Below, in pieces: positions 8,374 through 38,098 of a stretch of DNA of 64,000 bases. Where the stretch lies: the sequence record MZ501074, one strand, 5' to 3'. This DNA comes from Escherichia phage HildyBeyeler. Under the pieces are notes generated by a model, which was not told the origin of the DNA, ran no database searches, and worked only from the letters and a program-made list of their open reading frames with translations. The translations under genes were made by a program, and so were the position numbers. Numbering within the stretch: the first letter of the stretch is position 1; every line of letters starts with the position of its first letter.

Positions 8374-9141
8374 TTATTCAGCAGCCGCAGCTTTTGCATC
8401 CAGTTTAGCACGCTTAGCGGCACCATCATAGTCCTTAGCAACCAGACCACGACGAGACAGCATAGATTTAACACCGCGCTCAGACTTACCAGTTTTCTCA
8501 GCGATCTCAGCAACAGTCATGTTAACCAGATCCAGACCTTCTAACAGATCTTCACGAGTTTTAGCACTTGAGGTTTCCTGTACCGGCATAGCAGCGATAC
8601 GACCTTCACGAAGCAGACTCAGAGCTTTACCACGGATCTGTTTGATATTACGACCGAAGTGAGCAGCGATAGCTTCAATAGTAGCCCCAGCAACAACCTG
8701 ATTAACAAAGTCAGTTTCTTCATCCGGAGTGAAGGAACGAACAGCAGCAGTTTTTTCGGTTGGTTTAACAGAAGCGGTCATTTCCAGACTCAGGATCTTA
8801 CCCTGTACCTGTTTAGCACCGAACTGACCACCAGCCACAGCAGCAGCGATTTCAGCATAAGTATACTGACCAGCATGAGCGTTCAGGAAATCAACCAGTT
8901 CAGCTTCCTGCTCAGGAGTCCACGGGGATTTCTGTACTTCGTTAGCTTTCTGTACTTCAAAACCTTCTTTACGCAGTTTAGAGCCAACAGAGCGAGCAGT
9001 AACATCTTTGCCAGTTTCAGCAGCCAGTTCAGCGGCGATAGCAGCTACTTGTTCTTGAGAGATTACATCAACACCCAGAGCAGTGGCTTTTGCTTTCAGA
9101 GACTCGGTTACACCTTCTACGTTCCAGTTCAGTTTAGACAT
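8374..9141 (-). CDS. DNA-binding protein with three tandem HTH-like repeats (255 aa)
   Basis: Three internal repeats of the form TxAEIAxxxGxxxxxxxGKxLSL; Ala-rich. Confidence 0.5.
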   Translation of the reverse strand: MSKLNWNVEGVTESLKAKATALGVDVISQEQVAAIAAELAAETGKDVTARSVGSKLRKEGFEVQKANEVQKSPWTPEQEAELVDFLNAHAGQYTYAEIAAAVAGGQFGAKQVQGKILSLEMTASVKPTEKTAAVRSFTPDEETDFVNQVVAGATIEAIAAHFGRNIKQIRGKALSLLREGRIAAMPVQETSSAKTREDLLEGLDLVNMTVAEIAEKTGKSERGVKSMLSRRGLVAKDYDGAAKRAKLDAKAAAAE

Positions 9142-9916
9142 TATTATTTTTCTCCAATAGTTCTTTAATCGACAGGATTTCTATCCCATTCGTTTCGGCT
9201 TTCTTATAAGATGAGGAAGAACGCTTCGATTCATCCTCACAGATTAGGTATTTGACGTCTTTGGTAACGGATTTCTTAACCGTATATCCTAGACCTTCTA
9301 AATAGTTTGTTGCATCCGTTCTATTTGCAAAATCTTGCAAAGATCCGGTAATACATACCGCGATTCCATTTGGCTGGGCAGCTAATTCATCCGTAGTGAT
9401 AATATTAGCTTTAGTGCCCTTAATACCAGTTGAGAATTTCCACGGTAGTTCGATAACATCCTTGCCTTGTGGGGAATTTAGCCAGGCTTTGTAATTTTCT
9501 CCAGCCTTGCCGTCAGCCTTCACATCATGGAAGCTAGTGCAATTTTGGGATAATTTCTTTGCTGCAACCTCTCCAATTAGAGGGATTCCTAAAGAACCGA
9601 GAACTGAACCAAAGTCAATGTCTCCGCGAACTTTAGTATTTAATTCGCTAGTTAACTTAGCGGCAACCTTGCTACCCACGGCTCTAACCAAATCTTCTTC
9701 GGTTAGGTAAAATAGTTCTGAAATCTTCGTCAGCTCCAGCTTCTCAATAGTTTTTGGGCCAAAGCCCTTTAACTTCATTTTTGAACAGAAGTTCTCAATT
9801 AACTTGCTTGATTGCGCTGGACAGTTGGACTTATTACGACAGAATAATTGTCCGTTGACAAGATCTAGCTTAGAACCACAAGAGGGACATTGTGTTGGAA
9901 TTTCGATTTTCATCAA
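9134..9916 (-). CDS. ligB: NAD-dependent DNA ligase, C-terminal subunit (zinc finger, HhH, BRCT)
   Basis: N-terminal Cys4 zinc finger CPSCGS...CRNKSNC, helix-hairpin-helix region and BRCT-like C-terminus. Confidence 0.8.
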   Translation of the reverse strand: MMKIEIPTQCPSCGSKLDLVNGQLFCRNKSNCPAQSSKLIENFCSKMKLKGFGPKTIEKLELTKISELFYLTEEDLVRAVGSKVAAKLTSELNTKVRGDIDFGSVLGSLGIPLIGEVAAKKLSQNCTSFHDVKADGKAGENYKAWLNSPQGKDVIELPWKFSTGIKGTKANIITTDELAAQPNGIAVCITGSLQDFANRTDATNYLEGLGYTVKKSVTKDVKYLICEDESKRSSSSYKKAETNGIEILSIKELLEKNNNV

Positions 9917-10115: not shown

Positions 10116-11087
10116 TTAATCGTATACTCGCTCTACTATGCACGGGATTACACCACCAGCACGAATCACTCGAATCTGGCAACCGATCTCTAGATCGAGA
10201 GAGTTAATATAATCAACGTTATTAAGAGTTGCTTTAACAATTGTAGCATCATCAATAATTACCGGTTCAAAATAACCAACTGGAGTTACTTTACCCGAAG
10301 CCCCCACCTGCCATTCAACTTTAGTAAGAGTTGTAATCTCGCCTTCTTCATCCTCTTTAATAGCGAATGCTCCACGAGGGAATTTATTAGTCCAGCCTTC
10401 ACGGAAGAATTTGTTGTTATCATTAATACGAACAACTTTACCGTCCGTCGGAATCCATTTAAAGAAGGAACGCACATTAACAACTGTTAAGAAGTTCTCA
10501 TTCTCCAGCCAAAGCATATCTTTTAAGTATGATTCTGTAATACCTACAGATTCAGCAGAACACTGGATACCATATGCAACGAAGATTAAACCACCTTCCC
10601 CAATGCGTTGTACGAAATCATCACTATCTTTGAGGTTAATAGCACCAGAGGCAAAGTTACGTTTATTTTCTACTTCTTTTGTAATTAGAACTTCACCAGT
10701 TATTTGAGTAGGTACTTTTTGGGAAATCTTTTTAGGAATATTCAGCAATCTTACGTTGCTTGTGACATCATTCCCTAGAATACCGTTACCACGAGTTAGT
10801 GCTTGAACAAATTCGCCGTTAATATACAGCAGAGAAATTGCACAACCATCTAACTTATCGGTTTCCACCTGACCTAAAGGATTGAATGGTGGTTTATCAC
10901 CACGGTTATAGTAAACTTTCTGTAAAGAATACATACGATATAGATGTGGAATATCACCCTTAGGCCCGATCTCTTCCTCTAATGGGAAGCGTTTTACCAG
11001 ACGATCATATTCTTCATCAGAGATTAAAGACATTCCCTGGTAATATGCTTCTTGGCAACGTTTAATAAAGTCTTTTACATTAGTCAT
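10116..11087 (-). CDS. ligA: NAD-dependent DNA ligase, N-terminal adenylation/OB subunit
   Basis: Adenylation motif KLDG (TDKLDGCAISLLY), Ia domain and OB fold; lacks the zinc-finger and BRCT parts. Confidence 0.85.
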   Translation of the reverse strand: MTNVKDFIKRCQEAYYQGMSLISDEEYDRLVKRFPLEEEIGPKGDIPHLYRMYSLQKVYYNRGDKPPFNPLGQVETDKLDGCAISLLYINGEFVQALTRGNGILGNDVTSNVRLLNIPKKISQKVPTQITGEVLITKEVENKRNFASGAINLKDSDDFVQRIGEGGLIFVAYGIQCSAESVGITESYLKDMLWLENENFLTVVNVRSFFKWIPTDGKVVRINDNNKFFREGWTNKFPRGAFAIKEDEEGEITTLTKVEWQVGASGKVTPVGYFEPVIIDDATIVKATLNNVDYINSLDLEIGCQIRVIRAGGVIPCIVERVYD

Positions 11088-16677: not shown

Positions 16678-17273
16678 AACAATACTCCTGTGTTGGAAAT
16701 GAAATAAGTTTTCTTTAGGACTATTCAGAAAGAATAGAACAACTGTTACTGTCAATTTCTCAACAATTAATCGCAAATACTGAAGTGGGGTGGCAACTTC
16801 CACTTTCACGCTGCGCTGCTGCCTCATTATACCGCACAAATCCTTGAGGATGGCCGCTAAGCCGGATTTGCTCACCTAATGCTTCATATACTAGCTCATA
16901 CTAGATGCAATATAACTTACAGAATCACGTCTCGGTAGTTTTTCACTCCTCCCATCTCACTTCACAACCACCTCATACTAGGTTGCTTCGAGGCCTTACC
17001 AGGGTTCCTATGGGACGCAGATCGCTAAGTATTCTATTAACTATTTGTTTAAAAACTAACACGTAACAGTTAAAACAACCCTTAATGGGGCAGCCTAACT
17101 GTTCCGTATCGCGGATTGTAAACAAGAAAAAACTTTTTCGTAAAGCTCTAGCAACGTACCTTATGCAGCTATTTACGGGTCATCGATTCCTCTCGCCGTA
17201 AATCCATTGTCAGCTTCACTAAGAAAAATTAGCAAAATCAATTTTTACTAATGTCTCTCAATTCAATATAAAT

Positions 17274-17302
17274 ATTATAGCAAGATTTTGAGCATCATGC
17301 AA
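17274..17302 (-). promoter_or_regulatory. sigma70 promoter (TTGCAT, 17 bp, TATAAT)
   Basis: Consensus hexamers with the conserved downstream box TTGAATTGAGAGAC. Confidence 0.6.
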
Positions 17303-17378
17303 GTAAATTTTTAAGGAGAATGCTATCAGTGTCTTTGAGCACAGTGAAAACCGAGCCAAAATGACTCGGTTATGTGGA

Positions 17379-17573
17379 TTAGACACTTAAAATACTTCTA
17401 ATCTCTTCTATATACTTATCTACTTTTTTAGCATCTATTTTACTTAGTTTTCCTATATCAAAATCAGGATCAGTCAAATATCTTGCCATAAATTTTACTT
17501 GTTTAGCTGAAAGTTGACCCTTATTCCACTTTTTAATTTTACCATAACATACCCAATATTCTTTATTCATCAT
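17379..17573 (-). CDS. hypothetical protein (64 aa)
   Basis: ORF track. Confidence 0.4.
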   Translation of the reverse strand: MMNKEYWVCYGKIKKWNKGQLSAKQVKFMARYLTDPDFDIGKLSKIDAKKVDKYIEEIRSILSV

Positions 17574-17955
17574 TTAGTCCCGAAACATAAATCCCAACAC
17601 GGTTTAATTGTTCTTTGGCTTCTTTGAGAATATCTGGAGTGTACTCCCAAATATCATCTTCCACCTGTAAAAGATGGGGCGAACAACCGTCATCGGGCAC
17701 ACGACATATGGCCAAACCACGTGGATGGAACAAAGAGAAATTTAGTGCAACAATTAAACCCATAGCAGACAACTCATTCCAATCCAATTCCCATTCCCTA
17801 GCGTAGCCTGATAGGAAAACACCAATACAGGGATCGTCTATTTGCTGCTCCGGAAAAGTAAAGGAGGCTTGTCTTACCCCCAACCAACGTTGTAGCAGCT
17901 TCTCCGCACGCTTCACCAAACTAGGATCAATCTGACGCCAATATACTTGTTCCAT
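17563..17955 (-). CDS. hypothetical protein (130 aa), paralog of 17965-18393
   Basis: Shares CIG...W.EL...MGL..ALN..LF.P with the neighbouring gene. Confidence 0.55.
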   Translation of the reverse strand: MEQVYWRQIDPSLVKRAEKLLQRWLGVRQASFTFPEQQIDDPCIGVFLSGYAREWELDWNELSAMGLIVALNFSLFHPRGLAICRVPDDGCSPHLLQVEDDIWEYTPDILKEAKEQLNRVGIYVSGLNDE

Positions 17956-17964
17956 TGTGCCACC

Positions 17965-18393
17965 TTAGGCAGTTAAACCAGGAATTTGATAACCAAAACG
18001 ACGAAGTTTCTGGATACCATCATTTACTTCTTCCGGTGAGTAAGACCAACCGTAATGTTCATCAACTTGAAAGCCAGGAGATTCACTGGTTTTATAGTTA
18101 ACAACAATACGGTGTTTATTGGGCATAAATAGCTTATAGTTTAATGCAAAAACCAACCCCATTTCATCCAGCTCTTTCCAGCCGACAATCTCTTCCAGAC
18201 CATCCTCTACCTGCACAACTAGACCAATACACGGGGCCTCATCAATATCATCTTTAAAAGCAAAGGAGATTTCATTATTTTCACACCATATTTTCAAGGA
18301 GTTAATAGTCTCATTATACAGGCTAGCTGGGAGAGTACGCCAGAAGTTAACCAAAATTGGATTAGCTTCTTTAGAGAATACATTATTGAACAT
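17965..18393 (-). CDS. hypothetical protein (142 aa), paralog of 17563-17955
   Basis: Shares a conserved central block with the adjacent gene. Confidence 0.55.
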   Translation of the reverse strand: MFNNVFSKEANPILVNFWRTLPASLYNETINSLKIWCENNEISFAFKDDIDEAPCIGLVVQVEDGLEEIVGWKELDEMGLVFALNYKLFMPNKHRIVVNYKTSESPGFQVDEHYGWSYSPEEVNDGIQKLRRFGYQIPGLTA

Positions 18394-18395
18394 AT

Positions 18396-18902
18396 TTACA
18401 CCTTAAGTTGTTGTAGGGCTTTACACATTTCAAGATCTGGACTAAATTCTAGCATATAGCTAACAGCCATTAAATCTTGAAGGTTTATTCCAGTTCTACC
18501 GTTGACTATAACCGTTGGATACTGGTACATCATAGCACCAGCGTCATCCAGCACACACCAATGTTTGAGCTTATGCTTTTCAACGAAGCGAAGAACAGAA
18601 TTACCCCTAGATAGCCCACCACCAGTAAAATCCGTTGTACCAAGAAAACGATCAATAAGATCTAATCTGGTCATAATCTGAACGTTCTCCATCTCATTCC
18701 TGACAGAGAACCATGAAGATACCCCAACAATCATTATTGGAGAAGGACGAATAAAGTCCTGAAAAGCCTTGAGAAGCGGCTTAAAAACCCAGTCACTTCC
18801 AAAGAAAATCTTTTCATCATCAGGTGCATGATGGTGGGAGATGCTCGAATTAAGCACCCCATCGATGTCTAGAAAAATAATTGGAGTATTACTTATTTCC
18901 AT
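18396..18902 (-). CDS. HAD-superfamily phosphatase-like protein (168 aa)
   Basis: N-terminal HAD motif I IIFLDIDGVL and a downstream VLDD motif. Confidence 0.6.
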   Translation of the reverse strand: MEISNTPIIFLDIDGVLNSSISHHHAPDDEKIFFGSDWVFKPLLKAFQDFIRPSPIMIVGVSSWFSVRNEMENVQIMTRLDLIDRFLGTTDFTGGGLSRGNSVLRFVEKHKLKHWCVLDDAGAMMYQYPTVIVNGRTGINLQDLMAVSYMLEFSPDLEMCKALQQLKV

Positions 18903-19071
18903 TTCTGTTCCTTTCTAAGAACGTATCATACTCAACCGTATCAACATATATGACACCATAGTCATCGGATTTATAGTCCATTTCCCATAGCTCACATCGA
19001 TAGCACCAACTACCATCCGCCCATACAAATATATCATCGGGATGTGTATACACAGATTTAACTATGGACAT
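18889..19071 (-). CDS. hypothetical protein (60 aa)
   Basis: ORF track. Confidence 0.35.
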   Translation of the reverse strand: MSIVKSVYTHPDDIFVWADGSWCYRCELWEMDYKSDDYGVIYVDTVEYDTFLERNRNGNK

Positions 19072-19886
19072 ATTTGTTTTCCCGGCATATAAGGTCTACC
19101 CTCTAGATGAGCTTCTACACGAGCAATAAAACCAGGATCACTGAAAGCATCTACTGCACCTTTACTCCAGTAAGGAATACCACGATCTTCCAGTTGGTAC
19201 ATATCACTACGAGTCATACCTTGATAGCCTGGTTTCGACGCTAGGGCACTATCATAGTAGTTAACTACCATAAGTTTCGCAGCAGTCCGATTAAGAACAG
19301 GGAATAGTTCCCAGTAGAAGTTAATTACTTGGTTAGAGCAACCAACTACAACGATCATATCTTGACTGGTAATACCATCAAAAATATTGTACATTTCTGC
19401 GTACGCTGGAGCATGCTCACCAAAAAAGATTACATTAGGTTTAACCCATTTATAATCATCTGGGTCAATAGAGTTATACCCAACATCAATAACCCGTTTA
19501 TTACTACTATTGTAGCTATCAGCTACAACAACCTCTTTTAAATATCCGTGAATGTGCAGAATATCACTATGTGGAACGCCAGCACGCTCAATAAGGTCAT
19601 CAACGTTGGTAGTCAAGTTTACTACTTGACCCGGATATTTCTTATACCATTCACCAATACGCAAGTGTGCAAGATTAGGTTCAACAGTTTCTAACTCTTC
19701 ACGCCGCTTGTTGTAAAACATATGGGTTTTATGATAAAAGTTACCACGAAAGGCGTGAATATTACATACTTCTTCTAGATCATAATCATCCCACAGTGCT
19801 TTACCACTAGCAGTATCGGTACGAAAAGCTCGTACACCACTTTCAACGCTCAAACCTGCACCGCTAATAATAATTAATCTACGCAC
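19062..19886 (-). CDS. Sir2-family (sirtuin-like) NAD-binding protein (274 aa)
   Basis: GAGLSVESGVRAFR (compare Sir2 GAGIS..SGIP.FR), NVDDLIERAG and catalytic-His context ILHIHGY. Confidence 0.65.
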   Translation of the reverse strand: MRRLIIISGAGLSVESGVRAFRTDTASGKALWDDYDLEEVCNIHAFRGNFYHKTHMFYNKRREELETVEPNLAHLRIGEWYKKYPGQVVNLTTNVDDLIERAGVPHSDILHIHGYLKEVVVADSYNSSNKRVIDVGYNSIDPDDYKWVKPNVIFFGEHAPAYAEMYNIFDGITSQDMIVVVGCSNQVINFYWELFPVLNRTAAKLMVVNYYDSALASKPGYQGMTRSDMYQLEDRGIPYWSKGAVDAFSDPGFIARVEAHLEGRPYMPGKQICP

Positions 19887-20080
19887 TATACGATTCCTCG
19901 CTTAAATCCTTCGATAATATTTCGGAGTAAAATTGCTTCCTCCGGGCGTACCTTCTCTTGCTTAATAAGCATATCCAATCCAGCAATACAACTAGTTACA
20001 CCAGCATTATAACCAGAGTTCCATTGCTCAATGAGCATGTTTTCTAGATTACTTTTTAGATTCTGATTCAAGAAGTCCAT
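19886..20080 (-). CDS. hypothetical protein (64 aa)
   Basis: ORF track. Confidence 0.4.
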   Translation of the reverse strand: MDFLNQNLKSNLENMLIEQWNSGYNAGVTSCIAGLDMLIKQEKVRPEEAILLRNIIEGFKRGIV

Positions 20081-20255
20081 AAAGTTTCTCCTCTAGTCCC
20101 ATAATACGATTTTCATAAGAAGCACGCAACTTTTCAATTGCCAGCGCACGCACTGTAACCTCATTAGAATTAATAGCTAACTGGGCCAGATCTTCTGTTT
20201 CCATACGTCCGTTGTAAATTAAGCGATATTTAAGGTGTTTCACATTCTTGGTCAT
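20049..20255 (-). CDS. hypothetical protein (~68 aa)
   Basis: ORF track, start moved to the internal ATG at 20255, which has a GGAG RBS. Confidence 0.4.
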   Translation of the reverse strand: MTKNVKHLKYRLIYNGRMETEDLAQLAINSNEVTVRALAIEKLRASYENRIMGLEEKLYGLLESESKK

Positions 20256-20628
20256 TATTAAACTCCACTGCAACTGTTTCTAGGTCTTCGTCAAAAAAAC
20301 TAGAGTATGTATCTTTAAGATACTGTTTAATACTCCAAGTAATATCTTCGTATCCATCTGGACTACGTTGGTATACTTTTAACACTCTATTATACACAAA
20401 TTCAAGATTACATTTTACTTCATCTCTGTCTTCATCAAACAAGCAATATGGGTTATATGGCGATACATCTAGATTTGTTTCCACCCAATCACCAATAACG
20501 GTGGGGTATCCAGCACCATCTATATGAGAGTAATCACCTGTGGCAGCAAAGACAGCCTCAGCAATATCATCCACGCCCAGATGGAAATCACCACATGTAG
20601 ATTCAACTATATAGGGCTTTAATTCCAT
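20230..20628 (-). CDS. hypothetical acidic protein (132 aa)
   Basis: ORF downstream of promoter 20657-20685; no radical-SAM CxxxCxxC motif, so not NrdG. Confidence 0.5.
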   Translation of the reverse strand: MELKPYIVESTCGDFHLGVDDIAEAVFAATGDYSHIDGAGYPTVIGDWVETNLDVSPYNPYCLFDEDRDEVKCNLEFVYNRVLKVYQRSPDGYEDITWSIKQYLKDTYSSFFDEDLETVAVEFNNDQECETP

Positions 20629-20656
20629 ATCTTTCTCCTCTCAAATTTATAAATCT

Positions 20657-20685
20657 ATTATACATAAATTTTTAGCTGAAAGCAA
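20657..20685 (-). promoter_or_regulatory. strong sigma70 promoter, PN25-family
   Basis: TTGCTT, 17 bp, TATAAT on the minus strand with ATAAATTTGAGAGGAG downstream box. Confidence 0.75.
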
Positions 20686-20727
20686 ATAAAATAAAAGCCA
20701 GGTCGACTAGCAACCCGGCTGATTAGC

Positions 20728-30524: not shown

Positions 30525-30809
30525 ATGAGAATTTATAACTCAAATTCATTAGGATTTAAACCATTGAGAAAACGTGCACAATCACCTCGTCAAATAAGAA
30601 AGGCTAATATTGGTGAACCAGAAACACGTCTTCCACCTCCTCCAGAACAACGTTTAGTTTATCTGGACGAAGAATTAGCGGAACGCGAAAGAAAAGCTCA
30701 AGAAGAGATTAAGCATAAGAAAATGTGTACTGCTCCAGCCTACTCCAAAGGGGCTTATCAATATATCTATACAGCCGAGGAGGCTAAAGATGCGGGGCGT
30801 AAAAAATGA
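30525..30809 (+). CDS. hypothetical protein (94 aa)
   Basis: GAGGAGG RBS; own promoter. Confidence 0.5.
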   Translation: MRIYNSNSLGFKPLRKRAQSPRQIRKANIGEPETRLPPPPEQRLVYLDEELAERERKAQEEIKHKKMCTAPAYSKGAYQYIYTAEEAKDAGRKK

Positions 30810-31255
30810 AGATTACTGAATTTAAAGGTACTTATAGTTTTTTATCTAACTTTTATTTATCACCAATTACTTTCGAATATCTAAATGAGATATGGCATGC
30901 TGATACTGTAGAACATGCTTTTCAGGCTATGAAATCCGACCAAAAAGATGATGTAGCTCATGTGCTGCGCTCCCTAAATGCAGGAGTTGCCAAACGTAGA
31001 GGACGTAAATTAACTCTGCGCTCTGACTGGGATAAGGTAAAAGATGATGTAATGTTAGAGCTTTTACGGTTAAAGTTTGCAATCCCTGATTTGAGGGACA
31101 AACTGTTAGCAACAAAAAATGCAACTTTGATCGAAGGAAATACCTGGGGAGATACATACTGGGGTGTTTGCCGAGGCATCGGGGATAATACTTTAGGAGT
31201 TCTTTTGATGCAGGTAAGGTCTGAAATTAAAAGAAGTTTACAGTTAATAAATTAA
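30806..31255 (+). CDS. NADAR-domain (YbiA-like) protein (149 aa)
   Basis: FLSNFY...EHAFQAMK signature of the NADAR/DUF1768 family. Confidence 0.65.
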   Translation: MKITEFKGTYSFLSNFYLSPITFEYLNEIWHADTVEHAFQAMKSDQKDDVAHVLRSLNAGVAKRRGRKLTLRSDWDKVKDDVMLELLRLKFAIPDLRDKLLATKNATLIEGNTWGDTYWGVCRGIGDNTLGVLLMQVRSEIKRSLQLIN

Positions 31256-37150: not shown

Positions 37151-38098
37151 ATGTTTAATACTAAAAATATGAAAGAACTGACTTCTGAGCAAAAAGTAAT
37201 TCGCACTATTAAACGTTGGGGTATTGGTTCTGTAGTTGGTTTAGCAGGTTTAATCCTAGCTTTTAATTCATATACTATTGTTTCTGATGGTACAGTTAAA
37301 ACCCAAACATTTCTGGGTAAAGTAGATCCTAACCCAGTATTACCTGGTTTCCATCTTGTAAACCCATTTGCATCTTTCGATACTTTTAGTACAAAAGATA
37401 TTGCTGTAAAATTAGATAAACTTCAGGTTCCTAGCCAGGATAAGTTTAAATCCACTGTTGACCTGACTGTTATGTTGCAGTTTGATGGTTCTAAGGCACC
37501 GATCAACCGTATTAATGCAGGTACTCAGGATCAGGCGTTAGACAAATATGTTACTGAAAAATTACTGTCTACCATCCGTGAGTTTGGTAAGTCTGTACCT
37601 AAAGCACAAGATTTGTTTGATGCTAAAATTCAAGCACAATTACAAACTGCAATTCAACAGGAAGTTGAAGAGTATGCACGCCCTTATGGTTACACAGTTA
37701 AGCAAGTGTTCCTTCAGGATATTACATTGCCACCGGTAATTATGGAACAGGTACAGAATACCAAAGTTCGTGAAGAACAAGTTAATGCTGCGAAAGCTGA
37801 ATTGGCTCGTGTTGAACAAGAAGCACAGCAGAAGGTTAAACAAGCAGAAGCAGATCGTGAAGCTCGTAACAACCAAGCTATTGCAAACGAACGTGATGCA
37901 GATGCTAAACTGTATGCAGCTAAGAAAGAAGCCGAAGCTAACGCCGCTCTGCAACGTACTATTACTCCTGAGATGATTCGCTGGAAACAACTAGAAGTTG
38001 AAATGACTCGTGCTCAGAAGTATCAAGGTGGTGTGCCTCAGACTGTAGTAGGTACTGGTTACGATGGTCAAATGATCATGGATATGCGTAACAAGTAA
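37151..38098 (+). CDS. SPFH/band-7 (stomatin/prohibitin-like) membrane protein (315 aa)
   Basis: N-terminal TM helix, SPFH core, long Ala/Glu-rich coiled coil; terminator follows. Confidence 0.65.
   Translation: MFNTKNMKELTSEQKVIRTIKRWGIGSVVGLAGLILAFNSYTIVSDGTVKTQTFLGKVDPNPVLPGFHLVNPFASFDTFSTKDIAVKLDKLQVPSQDKFKSTVDLTVMLQFDGSKAPINRINAGTQDQALDKYVTEKLLSTIREFGKSVPKAQDLFDAKIQAQLQTAIQQEVEEYARPYGYTVKQVFLQDITLPPVIMEQVQNTKVREEQVNAAKAELARVEQEAQQKVKQAEADREARNNQAIANERDADAKLYAAKKEAEANAALQRTITPEMIRWKQLEVEMTRAQKYQGGVPQTVVGTGYDGQMIMDMRNK

What the first reader, a model, noticed from the sequence alone, without database searches (positions are those of the whole stretch)
17563..19886. A Sir2-like, HAD-phosphatase and duplicated-gene block that may act on NAD
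A sirtuin-family protein (19062-19886), a HAD-type phosphatase (18396-18902) and two tandem paralogous genes (17563-18393) are co-transcribed in the early region. Sir2 domains bind or consume NAD. Together with the NAD-dependent ligase and the NADAR protein at 30806-31255 (a family that acts on ADP-ribose adducts), this suggests the phage manipulates NAD or ADP-ribose metabolism. Possible roles include countering NAD-depleting or ADP-ribosylating host defences, or supplying the ligase. This is speculative.
Basis: inference. Interest (0 to 1): 0.55.

Follow-up and report, generated by a model that had tools for sequence, protein, structure and literature searches.

The report
T5 phage sirtuin–phosphatase early operon
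This is the long-annotated but never tested sirtuin plus HAD-phosphatase early operon of a T5-like phage; it very probably uses NAD, the pairing was already published as a predicted RNA-repair module, and the two duplicated genes beside it show no link to NAD.

Summary
The window is a T5-like phage (94% identical to T5 here). The described genes are real. 19062-19886 is a Sir2-family protein, 18396-18902 a HAD_SAK_2 phosphatase, and 17965-18393 and 17563-17955 are two DUF7415 paralogues (31% identical). All lie in one nine-gene early operon (T5.100-T5.107) between nrdD and the origin-binding protein gene.

The sirtuin keeps every NAD-binding and catalytic motif and the class III Y-x-x-R motif. 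It has lost the zinc cysteines and scores far below the CobB equivalog cut-offs. The HAD keeps all four catalytic motifs and is a capless type.

The Sir2-HAD pairing was already described by Iyer et al. 2022, who predicted NAD-dependent, KptA-like RNA repair. It has not been tested.

My added evidence concerns HAD orthologues. They sit inside NARP1 NAD-rebuilding operons of rV5-like Serratia phages. They also sit beside Sir2, ADP-ribosylglycohydrolase or NADAR genes in bacterial clusters. This ties the phosphatase to ADP-ribose chemistry.

DUF7415 has no known fold relative. Elsewhere it flanks the P2 replication gene A, or nrdD/nrdG, or rnlA, so its inclusion in an NAD module is unsupported.

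The window has no NARP1 or NARP3 genes and no Rnl1-type RNA ligase. One T5-like phage has naturally deleted Sir2 and the 5' part of the HAD gene.

Verdict: known feature, function still open.

The parts
20657..20685 (-). Sigma-70-type early promoter of the operon (TTGCTT, 17 nt, TATAAT, with TG just upstream of the -10 hexamer)
   Evidence: Read from the sequence. T5 records annotate an early promoter at the equivalent place. Not listed by the consensus scan.
20230..20628 (-). First ORF of the operon, 132 aa, acidic, function unknown (T5.100, PHROG 11748)
   Evidence: A homologue lies between HAD and Sir2 in the rearranged T5-like contig L017 (E 5.6e-15). My1_096 is also homologous.
20049..20273 (-). 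Small ORF, 74 aa from a TTG start, function unknown (PHROG 5236)
19886..20080 (-). Small ORF, 64 aa, function unknown (PHROG 5827); its stop abuts the Sir2 start
19062..19886 (-). Sir2-family protein of the phage sirtuin clade (T5.102). It is zinc-less, CobB-like, and keeps the class III Y-x-x-R motif.
   Evidence: - Pfam SIR2, E 1.5e-24.
- Best solved relative is E. coli CobB 1S5P, E 1.3e-17.
- Invariant across the phage clade and CobB: GAGxSxxSG, FYNxRR, TxNxD, HG, FGE. The zinc cysteines are absent.
- Scores below the CobB equivalog cut-offs.
18889..19071 (-). 60-aa ORF overlapping both the Sir2 stop and the HAD start (PHROG 5116). It is conserved directly after Sir2 in several T5-like lineages.
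   Evidence: (motif DGSWCYR...SDDY shared with Sugarlandvirus, Epseptimavirus and L015).
18396..18902 (-). Capless HAD phosphatase of the HAD_SAK_2 family (T5.105)
   Evidence: - Pfam E 1.2e-20.
- Invariant D12/D14, S63 (S62 nearly invariant), R99 and D119/D120.
- AF2 model pLDDT 94.
17965..18393 (-). DUF7415 paralogue A, 142 aa (T5.106), function unknown
   Evidence: Pfam E 6.6e-34. 31% identical to paralogue B.
17563..17955 (-). DUF7415 paralogue B, 130 aa (T5.107), function unknown
   Evidence: - Pfam E 1.2e-31.
- AF2 model pLDDT 95.8.
- BFVD matches with E <= 0.001 are named DUF7415 or carry no name; none has an assigned function.
- The C-terminal half (residues 57-116) equals the 77-81 aa single-domain phage proteins.
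17379..17573 (-). Last ORF of the operon, 64 aa (PHROG 29527). It is not annotated in the two T5 records examined.
17347..17370 (-). Putative intrinsic terminator (CCGAGTC / GGCTCGG stem followed by TTTT)
   Evidence: Read from the sequence. It was not flagged by the scan. T5 records annotate a terminator right after T5.107.

Best explanation
The Sir2 and HAD genes form a two-enzyme, NAD-consuming accessory module that is expressed early.

Most likely mechanism:
1. The zinc-less sirtuin transfers ADP-ribose from NAD onto an anionic oxygen acceptor and releases nicotinamide. Iyer et al. 2022 predict that the acceptor is an RNA 2'-phosphate left after cleavage by host anticodon or other metal-independent RNases, by analogy with KptA/Tpt1.
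2. The second step expels a phosphorylated ADP-ribose (ADPR 1'',2''-cyclic phosphate, which opens to ADPR-1''-phosphate).
3. The capless HAD then removes a phosphate. My preferred substrate is the phospho-ADP-ribose by-product, giving plain ADP-ribose. The alternative is the RNA end.

Shown here: the family memberships, the intact catalytic motifs, the operon structure and the recurrent gene linkage.
Inferred: every substrate and the order of the steps.

The two DUF7415 genes and the small ORFs are co-transcribed passengers or partners of unknown role. I do not count them as part of the NAD chemistry.
For: 1. The sirtuin keeps GAGxSxxSG, TxNxD, the catalytic HG and FGE.
2. It also keeps the class III FYNxRR motif. 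In CobB and SIRT5 the Tyr and Arg bind an anionic acyl group (my knowledge), so the motif suits an anionic acceptor such as phosphate (inference).
3. All zinc cysteines are lost across the whole phage clade, and the protein scores 101 bits against a cut-off of 243 for the CobB-type models. This argues against an ordinary CobB function.
4. All four HAD catalytic motifs are invariant, and the fold is confirmed.
5. Sir2 and HAD stay linked in different gene orders. The order is Sir2-small-HAD in T5, Epseptimavirus and My1. It is HAD-x-Sir2 in contigs L015 and L017.
6. Orthologous sirtuins (57-62% identical) in rV5-like phages sit beside a T4-type RNA ligase, a small gene annotated ATPase or 3'-phosphatase/5'-polynucleotide kinase, a phosphoesterase and a DNA ligase.
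7. HAD orthologues (35-43% identical) lie in the NARP1 operon of rV5-like phages, with the HAD stop overlapping the Adps start in L013. The 595-aa partner matches the Namat structures 9W5X/9W5W at 1e-115, against 1e-48 for Nampt.
8. Bacterial clusters pair HAD_SAK_2 with Sir2 + ADP-ribosylglycohydrolase (L155), with NADAR (L162) or with Sir2 (L189).
9. Iyer et al. 2022 (PMC9503650, section 3.7.3) describe this sirtuin-HAD neighbourhood in SP15-type (T5-like) phages and propose the KptA-like role.
10. A Macro-domain ADPR-1''-phosphate phosphatase is a proven NARP1 partner (bioRxiv 10.64898/2026.01.28.702374). This is a precedent for a phosphatase in that operon position.
Against: - No Rnl1-type RNA ligase or polynucleotide kinase was found in the 64-kb window with my seeds. 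An RNA-repair pathway would therefore be incomplete or rely on host enzymes.
- The nearest structural relatives of the HAD (MDP-1, CTD phosphatases) act on phosphoproteins.
- The Y-x-x-R motif fits a desuccinylase-type protein deacylase equally well.
- Linkage within T5-like phages is largely inherited synteny, not independent events.
- Sugarlandvirus keeps Sir2 but has no HAD.
- The immediate neighbours of distant HAD_SAK_2 homologues are heterogeneous.
- The HAD-NARP1 link was seen in only one small phage group. Three contigs were read, plus two further GenBank records at 80-90% identity.
- No biochemical or genetic data exist for any member.
Confidence: 0.4

Rival explanations
1. Counter-defence by metabolite processing, without RNA. 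The HAD dephosphorylates phospho-ADP-ribose made by host NAD-phosphorolysing defences (RES/aRES type) or other phosphorylated ADPR signals. The sirtuin handles NAD or ADPR derivatives, for example by base exchange or signal destruction.
For: - HAD orthologues sit in NARP1 operons, upstream of Adps rather than between Adps and Namat where the Macro phosphatase Adpp sits in Vibrio phage Gary.
- HAD_SAK_2 is found with NADAR and with ADP-ribosylglycohydrolase in bacterial clusters.
- The genes are in an early operon.
- A T5-like phage has naturally deleted them, as expected for an accessory function.
Against: - The window has no Adps/Namat and no PnuC/NadR to use the ADPR produced.
- A sirtuin consumes NAD rather than restoring it.
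- No defence phenotype has been reported. The Osterman papers do not mention a HAD.
Confidence: 0.2
2. Host takeover by erasing protein modifications. The sirtuin is a class III lysine deacylase (desuccinylase or deacetylase) and the capless HAD is a phosphoprotein phosphatase. Both reset host or phage proteins early in infection.
For: - The closest solved relatives are CobB and SIRT5 deacylases, and the Y-x-x-R motif is conserved.
- The closest structural relatives of the HAD are MDP-1, Scp1/Fcp1 and UBLCP1, which are protein phosphatases.
Against: - The zinc module that helps form the peptide cleft is lost.
- The protein is far below the CobB equivalog cut-offs.
- This reading does not explain linkage of the same HAD family to NARP1, NADAR and ADP-ribosylglycohydrolase. 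It also does not explain linkage of the sirtuin clade to RNA ligase and kinase genes.
Confidence: 0.15
3. There is no functional module. The genes are independent accessory early genes that sit together only through inherited synteny of the nrdD-to-origin-binding-protein region of Demerecviridae.
For: - Sugarlandvirus lacks the HAD.
- L015 and L017 show no called DUF7415 gene.
- DUF7415 has quite different neighbours elsewhere.
- Neighbours of distant HAD homologues are heterogeneous.
Against: - The Sir2-HAD pair persists despite gene-order inversion.
- It recurs in unrelated bacterial clusters. About 0.1 such case would be expected by chance among 43 loci if there is one sirtuin per genome; this is my rough estimate.
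- The stop/start overlaps Sir2/60-aa ORF/HAD suggest translational coupling.
Confidence: 0.15

Closest known systems
Phage sirtuin-centred predicted RNA-repair neighbourhoods, type 3 (sirtuin + 'Swiss-army-knife-like' HAD, prototype Escherichia phage SP15); Iyer, Burroughs, Anantharaman & Aravind 2022, PMC9503650
   Same: It is the same gene pair in the same phage group. SP15 proteins are among the direct homologues found here, and the paper describes the same neighbourhood.
   Different: Nothing essential differs. The paper's text does not mention the DUF7415 pair, the 60-aa ORF or the 132-aa ORF. It is a computational prediction only.
KptA/Tpt1 RNA 2'-phosphotransferase
   Same: The proposed chemistry is the same: NAD-dependent removal of a phosphate through an ADP-ribosyl intermediate that yields ADPR-cyclic phosphate (analogy from PMC9503650).
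   Different: The fold is unrelated (ART versus Sir2 Rossmann). No activity has been shown for the phage sirtuin. No ligase partner was found in this window.
E. coli CobB / human SIRT5 (class III sirtuins)
   Same: CobB is the best solved sequence relative. About 31-33% identity to the solved CobB fragment; all NAD-binding and catalytic motifs and Y-x-x-R are shared.
   Different: The four zinc cysteines are lost. The protein has an extra C-terminal region and fails the NCBIfam CobB equivalog cut-offs.
NARP1-AP (Adps + Namat + Macro-domain ADPR-1''-phosphate phosphatase Adpp); Osterman et al. 2026 preprint
   Same: A phosphatase gene is embedded in a NARP1 operon. HAD_SAK_2 orthologues have that kind of position in rV5-like Serratia phages.
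   Different: The fold differs (HAD, not Macro). The T5-like window has no Adps or Namat. The substrate of the HAD is unknown.
Capless (C0) HAD phosphatases: MDP-1, Scp1/Fcp1 CTD phosphatases, T4 Pnkp phosphatase domain

Membership tests
Sir2/sirtuin family (PF02146) | Profile score above the curated cut-off | tested here: met
   87.3 bits against a cut-off of 24, E 1.5e-24.
Sir2/sirtuin family (PF02146) | NAD-binding GAGxSxxSG, TxNxD, catalytic His of HG, and the FGE motif | tested here: met
   G9-A10-G11, S13, S16-G17, T92, N94, D96, H113-G114 and F155-G156-E157 are invariant across the phage clade and CobB.
Sir2/sirtuin family (PF02146) | Four-cysteine zinc module of canonical sirtuins | tested here: not met
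   The CobB cysteines (C...CxCC) align to a cysteine-free segment in all eight phage sequences.
CobB-type NAD-dependent protein deacylase (NCBIfam equivalogs) | Score above the equivalog cut-off | tested here: not met
   NF001753 (a subfamily model) scores 101 bits against 243. The equivalog NF040867 scores 91 against 320.
Class III sirtuins | Y-x-x-R motif that binds acidic acyl groups | tested here: met
   FYNKRR aligns with CobB FYNARR. Y58, R61 and R62 are invariant. The role of the motif is from my own knowledge.
Sirtuin enzymatic activity | NAD-dependent deacylation, ADP-ribosyl transfer or NAD hydrolysis | not testable with these tools
   Needs a biochemical assay.
HAD superfamily / HAD_SAK_2 (PF18143) | Profile score above the cut-off and a HAD Rossmannoid fold | tested here: met
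HAD superfamily / HAD_SAK_2 (PF18143) | Four catalytic motifs: DxD nucleophile and acid, S/T, K/R, DD | tested here: met
   D12, D14, S63, R99, D119 and D120 are invariant in 16 sequences down to 37% identity; S62 is nearly invariant.
Phage sirtuin-HAD RNA-repair neighbourhood (Iyer et al. 2022, type 3) | Phage-clade sirtuin adjacent to a SAK-like HAD | tested here: met
   The two genes are separated only by a 60-aa ORF, with overlapping stops and starts.
Phage sirtuin-HAD RNA-repair neighbourhood (Iyer et al. 2022, type 3) | An RNA ligase and end-healing kinase available to complete the repair | tested here: not met
   No Rnl1-type ligase or PNK-like kinase in the window by tblastn with three ligase seeds and one kinase seed. 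Other ligase families and the rest of the genome were not examined.
Phage sirtuin-HAD RNA-repair neighbourhood (Iyer et al. 2022, type 3) | RNA 2'-phosphotransferase activity of the sirtuin | not testable with these tools
   This is a prediction in the literature only.
NARP1 / NARP1-AP | Adps (PRPP-synthetase-like) and Namat genes | tested here: not met
   No hit in the window with Adps-like and Namat-like seeds.
NARP3 | PnuC-like transporter + NadR-like enzyme (Bas30_86/87) | tested here: not met
   No tblastn hit in the window. The neighbouring gene bas30_85 is present at 37151-38095.
DUF7415 (PF24187) | Profile score above the cut-off | tested here: met
   116 and 109 bits against a cut-off of 27.

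The most novel reading that the evidence does not exclude
HAD_SAK_2 is a previously unrecognised, non-Macro phosphatase for phosphorylated ADP-ribose (ADPR-1''-phosphate or the product of ADPR-cyclic phosphate). In rV5-like phages it would feed NARP1 and so counter RES-type NAD phosphorolysis. In T5-like phages it would work with a zinc-less sirtuin that uses NAD to strip phosphates from RNA or another acceptor. That would be a sirtuin acting as a phosphotransferase rather than a deacylase.
Probability: 0.2. Interest if true: 0.7.

Novelty: already known. Interest (0 to 1): 0.35.

Why it matters
T5 is a classic model phage, yet its sirtuin has no tested function. If the KptA-like prediction holds, it would be the first sirtuin shown to act on a phosphate acceptor. 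It would also be a second, convergent NAD-dependent route of RNA end healing.

The link found here between the same HAD family and NARP1 operons gives a concrete, cheap experiment: test HAD activity on ADPR-1''-phosphate, and test HAD + NARP1 against aRES. That experiment could add a new enzyme to the current NAD-centred phage-bacterium arms race.

As it stands, the block in the window is an ordinary, conserved and dispensable part of T5-like genomes.

Tried and rejected
1. NARP3 (PnuC + NadR of the T5-like phage Bas30) as part of an NAD theme in this window. It is absent.
2. NARP1, Rnl1 ligase or PNK-like kinase in the window. They are absent.
3. A function for DUF7415 from structure.
   - The AF2 model is excellent (pLDDT 95.8).
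   - BFVD matches with E <= 0.001 are named DUF7415 or carry no name.
   - The afdb50 library was unavailable.
4. A DUF7415 link to NAD or RNA repair from context.
   - Single-domain members mostly flank P2-type gene A.
   - Only the Aeh1-type phages place it after rnlA.
   - I rejected it as part of the NAD module.
5. Internal duplication of DUF7415. Pfam reports two matched stretches per protein. An HMM of single-domain members hits only the C-terminal halves, and N-half versus C-half BLAST gives nothing. This is unresolved.
6. General neighbourhood enrichment for distant HAD_SAK_2 homologues in viral contigs (114 neighbours scanned). The result is heterogeneous, with one NADAR and one cREC.
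7. The 140-aa gene upstream of HAD in the NARP1 phages. It has no Pfam family above its cut-off (only a sub-threshold TrmB hit) and no homologue in the T5 block.
8. The first related-loci run with alignment A4 failed because no stretch was conserved enough. I repeated it with A8.
9. The Burroughs & Aravind 2016 RNA-repair paper, which defined the SAK HAD, is not held in the library.
10. Literature searches for DUF7415 (0 papers) and for an experimental study of a T5 sirtuin found none.
Full report
**What the window is.** Megablast of 17000-20700 against GenBank phages finds 448 records. They are nearly all T5-like phages of Salmonella and Escherichia. The best is Salmonella phage Tennessee at 98.7% identity, and T5 itself is 94% identical. 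The T5 records show that the block is T5.100-T5.107. It lies on the minus strand between nrdD and the replication origin-binding protein gene. An annotated early promoter lies upstream and a terminator downstream.

**Checking the observation.** All four ORFs exist at the stated coordinates. Pfam gives these assignments:
- 19062-19886: SIR2, E 1.5e-24.
- 18396-18902: HAD_SAK_2, 'HAD domain in Swiss Army Knife RNA repair proteins', E 1.2e-20.
- 17965-18393 and 17563-17955: DUF7415 for both.

The two DUF7415 proteins are 31% identical.

The sequence shows the operon signals:
- The nrdD terminator is at 20696-20720.
- A TTGCTT-17 nt-TATAAT promoter with an upstream TG follows at 20657-20685, then a Shine-Dalgarno sequence and the ATG at 20628.
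- A hairpin with a T-run lies at about 17347-17370, after a ninth small ORF at 17379-17573.

The operon therefore has nine ORFs. Several have overlapping stops and starts, for example Sir2 / 60-aa ORF / HAD.

The NADAR domain at 30806-31255 is confirmed. The split NAD-dependent ligase is at 9137-9913 and 10119-11087 (names).

**The sirtuin.**
- Its closest solved relative is E. coli CobB (1S5P, E 1.3e-17), followed by Sir2Af and SIRT5.
- I aligned eight phage sirtuins with CobB: T5-like, Epseptimavirus, My1, Sugarlandvirus, two divergent T5-like contigs and two rV5-like phages.
- The NAD-binding GAGxSxxSG, TxNxD, the catalytic HG and FGE are invariant. So is the class III FYNxRR motif.
- The four zinc cysteines of CobB align to a cysteine-free segment in every phage sequence.
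- Against NCBIfam the protein reaches 101 bits where the CobB-type models require 221-395.
- It is therefore a genuine sirtuin with an intact active site, but not a CobB equivalog.
- The clade is widespread: 996 phage records include T5-like, rV5-like, jumbo and Vibrio myophages. Identity between T5-like and rV5-like members is 57-62%.

**The HAD.**
- In 16 homologues down to 37% identity, D12 and D14 (FLDIDGVLN), S63, R99 and D119-D120 are invariant; S62 is nearly invariant.
- The AF2 model is confident (pLDDT 94).
- There is no sequence-level PDB relative.

**The DUF7415 pair.**
- The AF2 model of paralogue B has pLDDT 95.8.
- In BFVD, matches with E <= 0.001 are named DUF7415 or carry no name.
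- The C-terminal half is homologous to 77-81 aa single-domain proteins.
- These single-domain proteins lie between nrdD and nrdG in Klebsiella T4-like phages. They lie immediately after rnlA in Aeh1-type phages. In P2-like prophages they lie directly beside replication gene A, sometimes fused to ASCH/DUF3850 or Cox domains.
- None of these contexts involves NAD. I therefore do not treat these genes as part of an NAD module.

**Is Sir2-HAD a functional pair?** Evidence for:
- Fourteen T5-like IMG/VR loci have nrdD-Sir2-HAD-DUF7415-DUF7415, and thirteen of them also show the 60-aa ORF.
- My1 has Sir2-small-HAD-x-DUF7415.
- Two divergent T5-like contigs have the inverted order HAD-x-Sir2 and no called DUF7415 gene. 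In one of them, x is homologous to the first ORF of this operon.
- In bacteria, a Prevotellaceae MAG has MoxR-vWA-HAD_SAK_2-Metallophos-x-Sir2 (also with the four CobB zinc cysteines not conserved, one Cys remaining)-ADP-ribosylglycohydrolase. Another MAG has Sir2-SDR-HAD_SAK_2. A Desulfovibrionaceae element has HAD_SAK_2 with three phosphoesterases and NADAR.

Evidence against:
- Sugarlandvirus keeps Sir2 and both DUF7415 genes but lacks the HAD.
- One T5-like phage (L036) has a natural 1.35-kb deletion equal to window 18714-20066. It removes Sir2, two small ORFs and the 5' part of the HAD gene. The genes are therefore dispensable.

**A link to NAD rebuilding.**
- The closest non-T5 relatives of the HAD (35-43% identity) are in roughly 150-kb rV5-like phages: Serratia phage ChuuTotoro and two metagenomic contigs.
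- There the HAD gene is the first recognisable enzyme of an operon. A PRPP-synthetase-like gene and a 595-aa NAPRTase-family gene follow it.
- The 595-aa protein matches the Namat crystal structures 9W5X/9W5W at 1e-115, against 1e-48 for ordinary Nampt (PDB identities from PMC12774641). This is a NARP1 operon.
- Osterman et al. (2026 preprint) showed that a Macro-domain ADPR-1''-phosphate phosphatase inside NARP1 operons overcomes the RES-type defence aRES. They do not mention a HAD.
- The HAD-NARP1 association is, as far as I could find, not described. In GenBank it is confined to a small phage group.

**What the literature already says.** Iyer, Burroughs, Anantharaman and Aravind (2022, PMC9503650) state that most viral sirtuins form a distinct clade predicted to act in RNA repair. 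They list three neighbourhood types:
1. Jumbo phages, with 2H, Nudix, cREC and PIN.
2. V5/Mydo-type phages, with a T4-like tRNA ligase, cREC, kinase, MazG and calcineurin-like phosphoesterase.
3. [quoted passage not shown]

SP15 is a T5-like phage, so type 3 is exactly this block. They propose that the sirtuin acts like KptA, removing RNA 2'-phosphates with NAD. The phosphoesterases would either prepare the RNA end or process the ADPR>P by-product. My contexts for the rV5-like sirtuins agree with type 2. I found no experimental study.

**Interpretation.**
- I commit, at 0.4, to an NAD-consuming sirtuin-plus-phosphatase module of the kind predicted by Iyer et al. My refinement, from the NARP1, NADAR and ARH contexts, is that the HAD more likely dephosphorylates a phospho-ADP-ribose than an RNA end.
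- The main weakness is that the window has no Rnl1-type RNA ligase or PNK-like kinase.
- The rivals are a purely metabolite-level counter-defence (0.2), a deacylase plus protein-phosphatase pair for host takeover (0.15) and no functional coupling (0.15).
The window lacks NARP1 and NARP3, and sirtuins consume NAD.
- NADAR lies 11 kb away on the other strand. T4 needs its NADAR protein AdfN to grow on a DarTG1 host.

**Verdict.** The feature has been annotated in T5 since 2004-2005, and its Sir2-HAD linkage was published in 2022, so it is already known. Its residual interest lies in the untested function and in the new, testable HAD-NARP1 lead.

Noticed in passing
L013:6001-9217, L014:6001-9569, L016:6001-9519: In rV5-like phages of about 150 kb (Serratia phage ChuuTotoro and two metagenomic contigs), a HAD_SAK_2 gene 35-43% identical to the T5 one heads a NARP1 operon (HAD, optional 99-116 aa ORF, Adps-like, Namat-like). 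The NARP1 papers I read do not mention this phosphatase.
   Followed up: partly
L155:1891-8611: A Prevotellaceae MAG carries a co-directional cluster of MoxR AAA+, vWA, HAD_SAK_2, calcineurin-like phosphoesterase, a 219-aa protein, a sirtuin lacking the four CobB zinc cysteines (one Cys remains) and an ADP-ribosylglycohydrolase. It looks like a MoxR-vWA conflict system with an NAD/ADP-ribose effector set.
   Followed up: partly
L036:7468-8001 (equivalent to window 18714-20066): One T5-like phage genome (108,050 bp) has a natural deletion of about 1.35 kb. It removes the 64-aa ORF, Sir2, the 60-aa ORF and the first 63 codons of the HAD gene. The genes are therefore dispensable for a viable phage.
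   Followed up: yes
window 18396-18902 and 17563-18393: There is systematic misannotation in public records. PHROG 18062, named 'Sir2 (NAD-dependent deacetylase)', actually matches the C-terminal half of the HAD (E 1.5e-55), so many genomes list 'Sir2 x2'. The DUF7415 genes are variously labelled 'tail protein', 'tail tube protein' or 'exonuclease'.
   Followed up: partly
window 30806-31255: A NADAR-domain protein (Pfam E 6e-22) lies on the plus strand. It scores below the cut-offs of both NCBIfam NADAR models. T4 needs its NADAR protein AdfN to grow on a DarTG1 host, while T5 is reported as sensitive to DarTG2. No equivalent gene was identified in the T5 annotation I looked at.
   Followed up: partly
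window 37151-38095: This is a homologue (91% identity) of bas30_85, the gene next to the NARP3 pair (NadR-like + PnuC) in phage TrudiRoth. The two NARP3 genes themselves are absent from this window. The NARP3 cassette is therefore a variable insertion among T5-like phages.
   Followed up: partly
L071-L150 (e.g. L098:5688-6161, L120:5659-6216): In P2-like prophages the DUF7415 domain lies immediately upstream or downstream of replication gene A. It often sits in longer ORFs of 140-185 aa, some with an ASCH/DUF3850 N-terminal domain. In T5 the DUF7415 pair likewise precedes the origin-binding protein gene. A replication-related role is conceivable but was not examined.
   Followed up: no
window 17379-17573: A 64-aa ORF (PHROG 29527) lies between DUF7415 paralogue B and the terminator. 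It has no annotated counterpart in the two T5 records, where the terminator follows T5.107 directly.
   Followed up: no
window 17563-18393: Pfam reports two matched stretches of the 53-position DUF7415 model in each paralogue, with the best one in the N-terminal half. An HMM built from single-domain members matches only the C-terminal halves. Whether each gene is an internal duplication is unresolved.
   Followed up: partly
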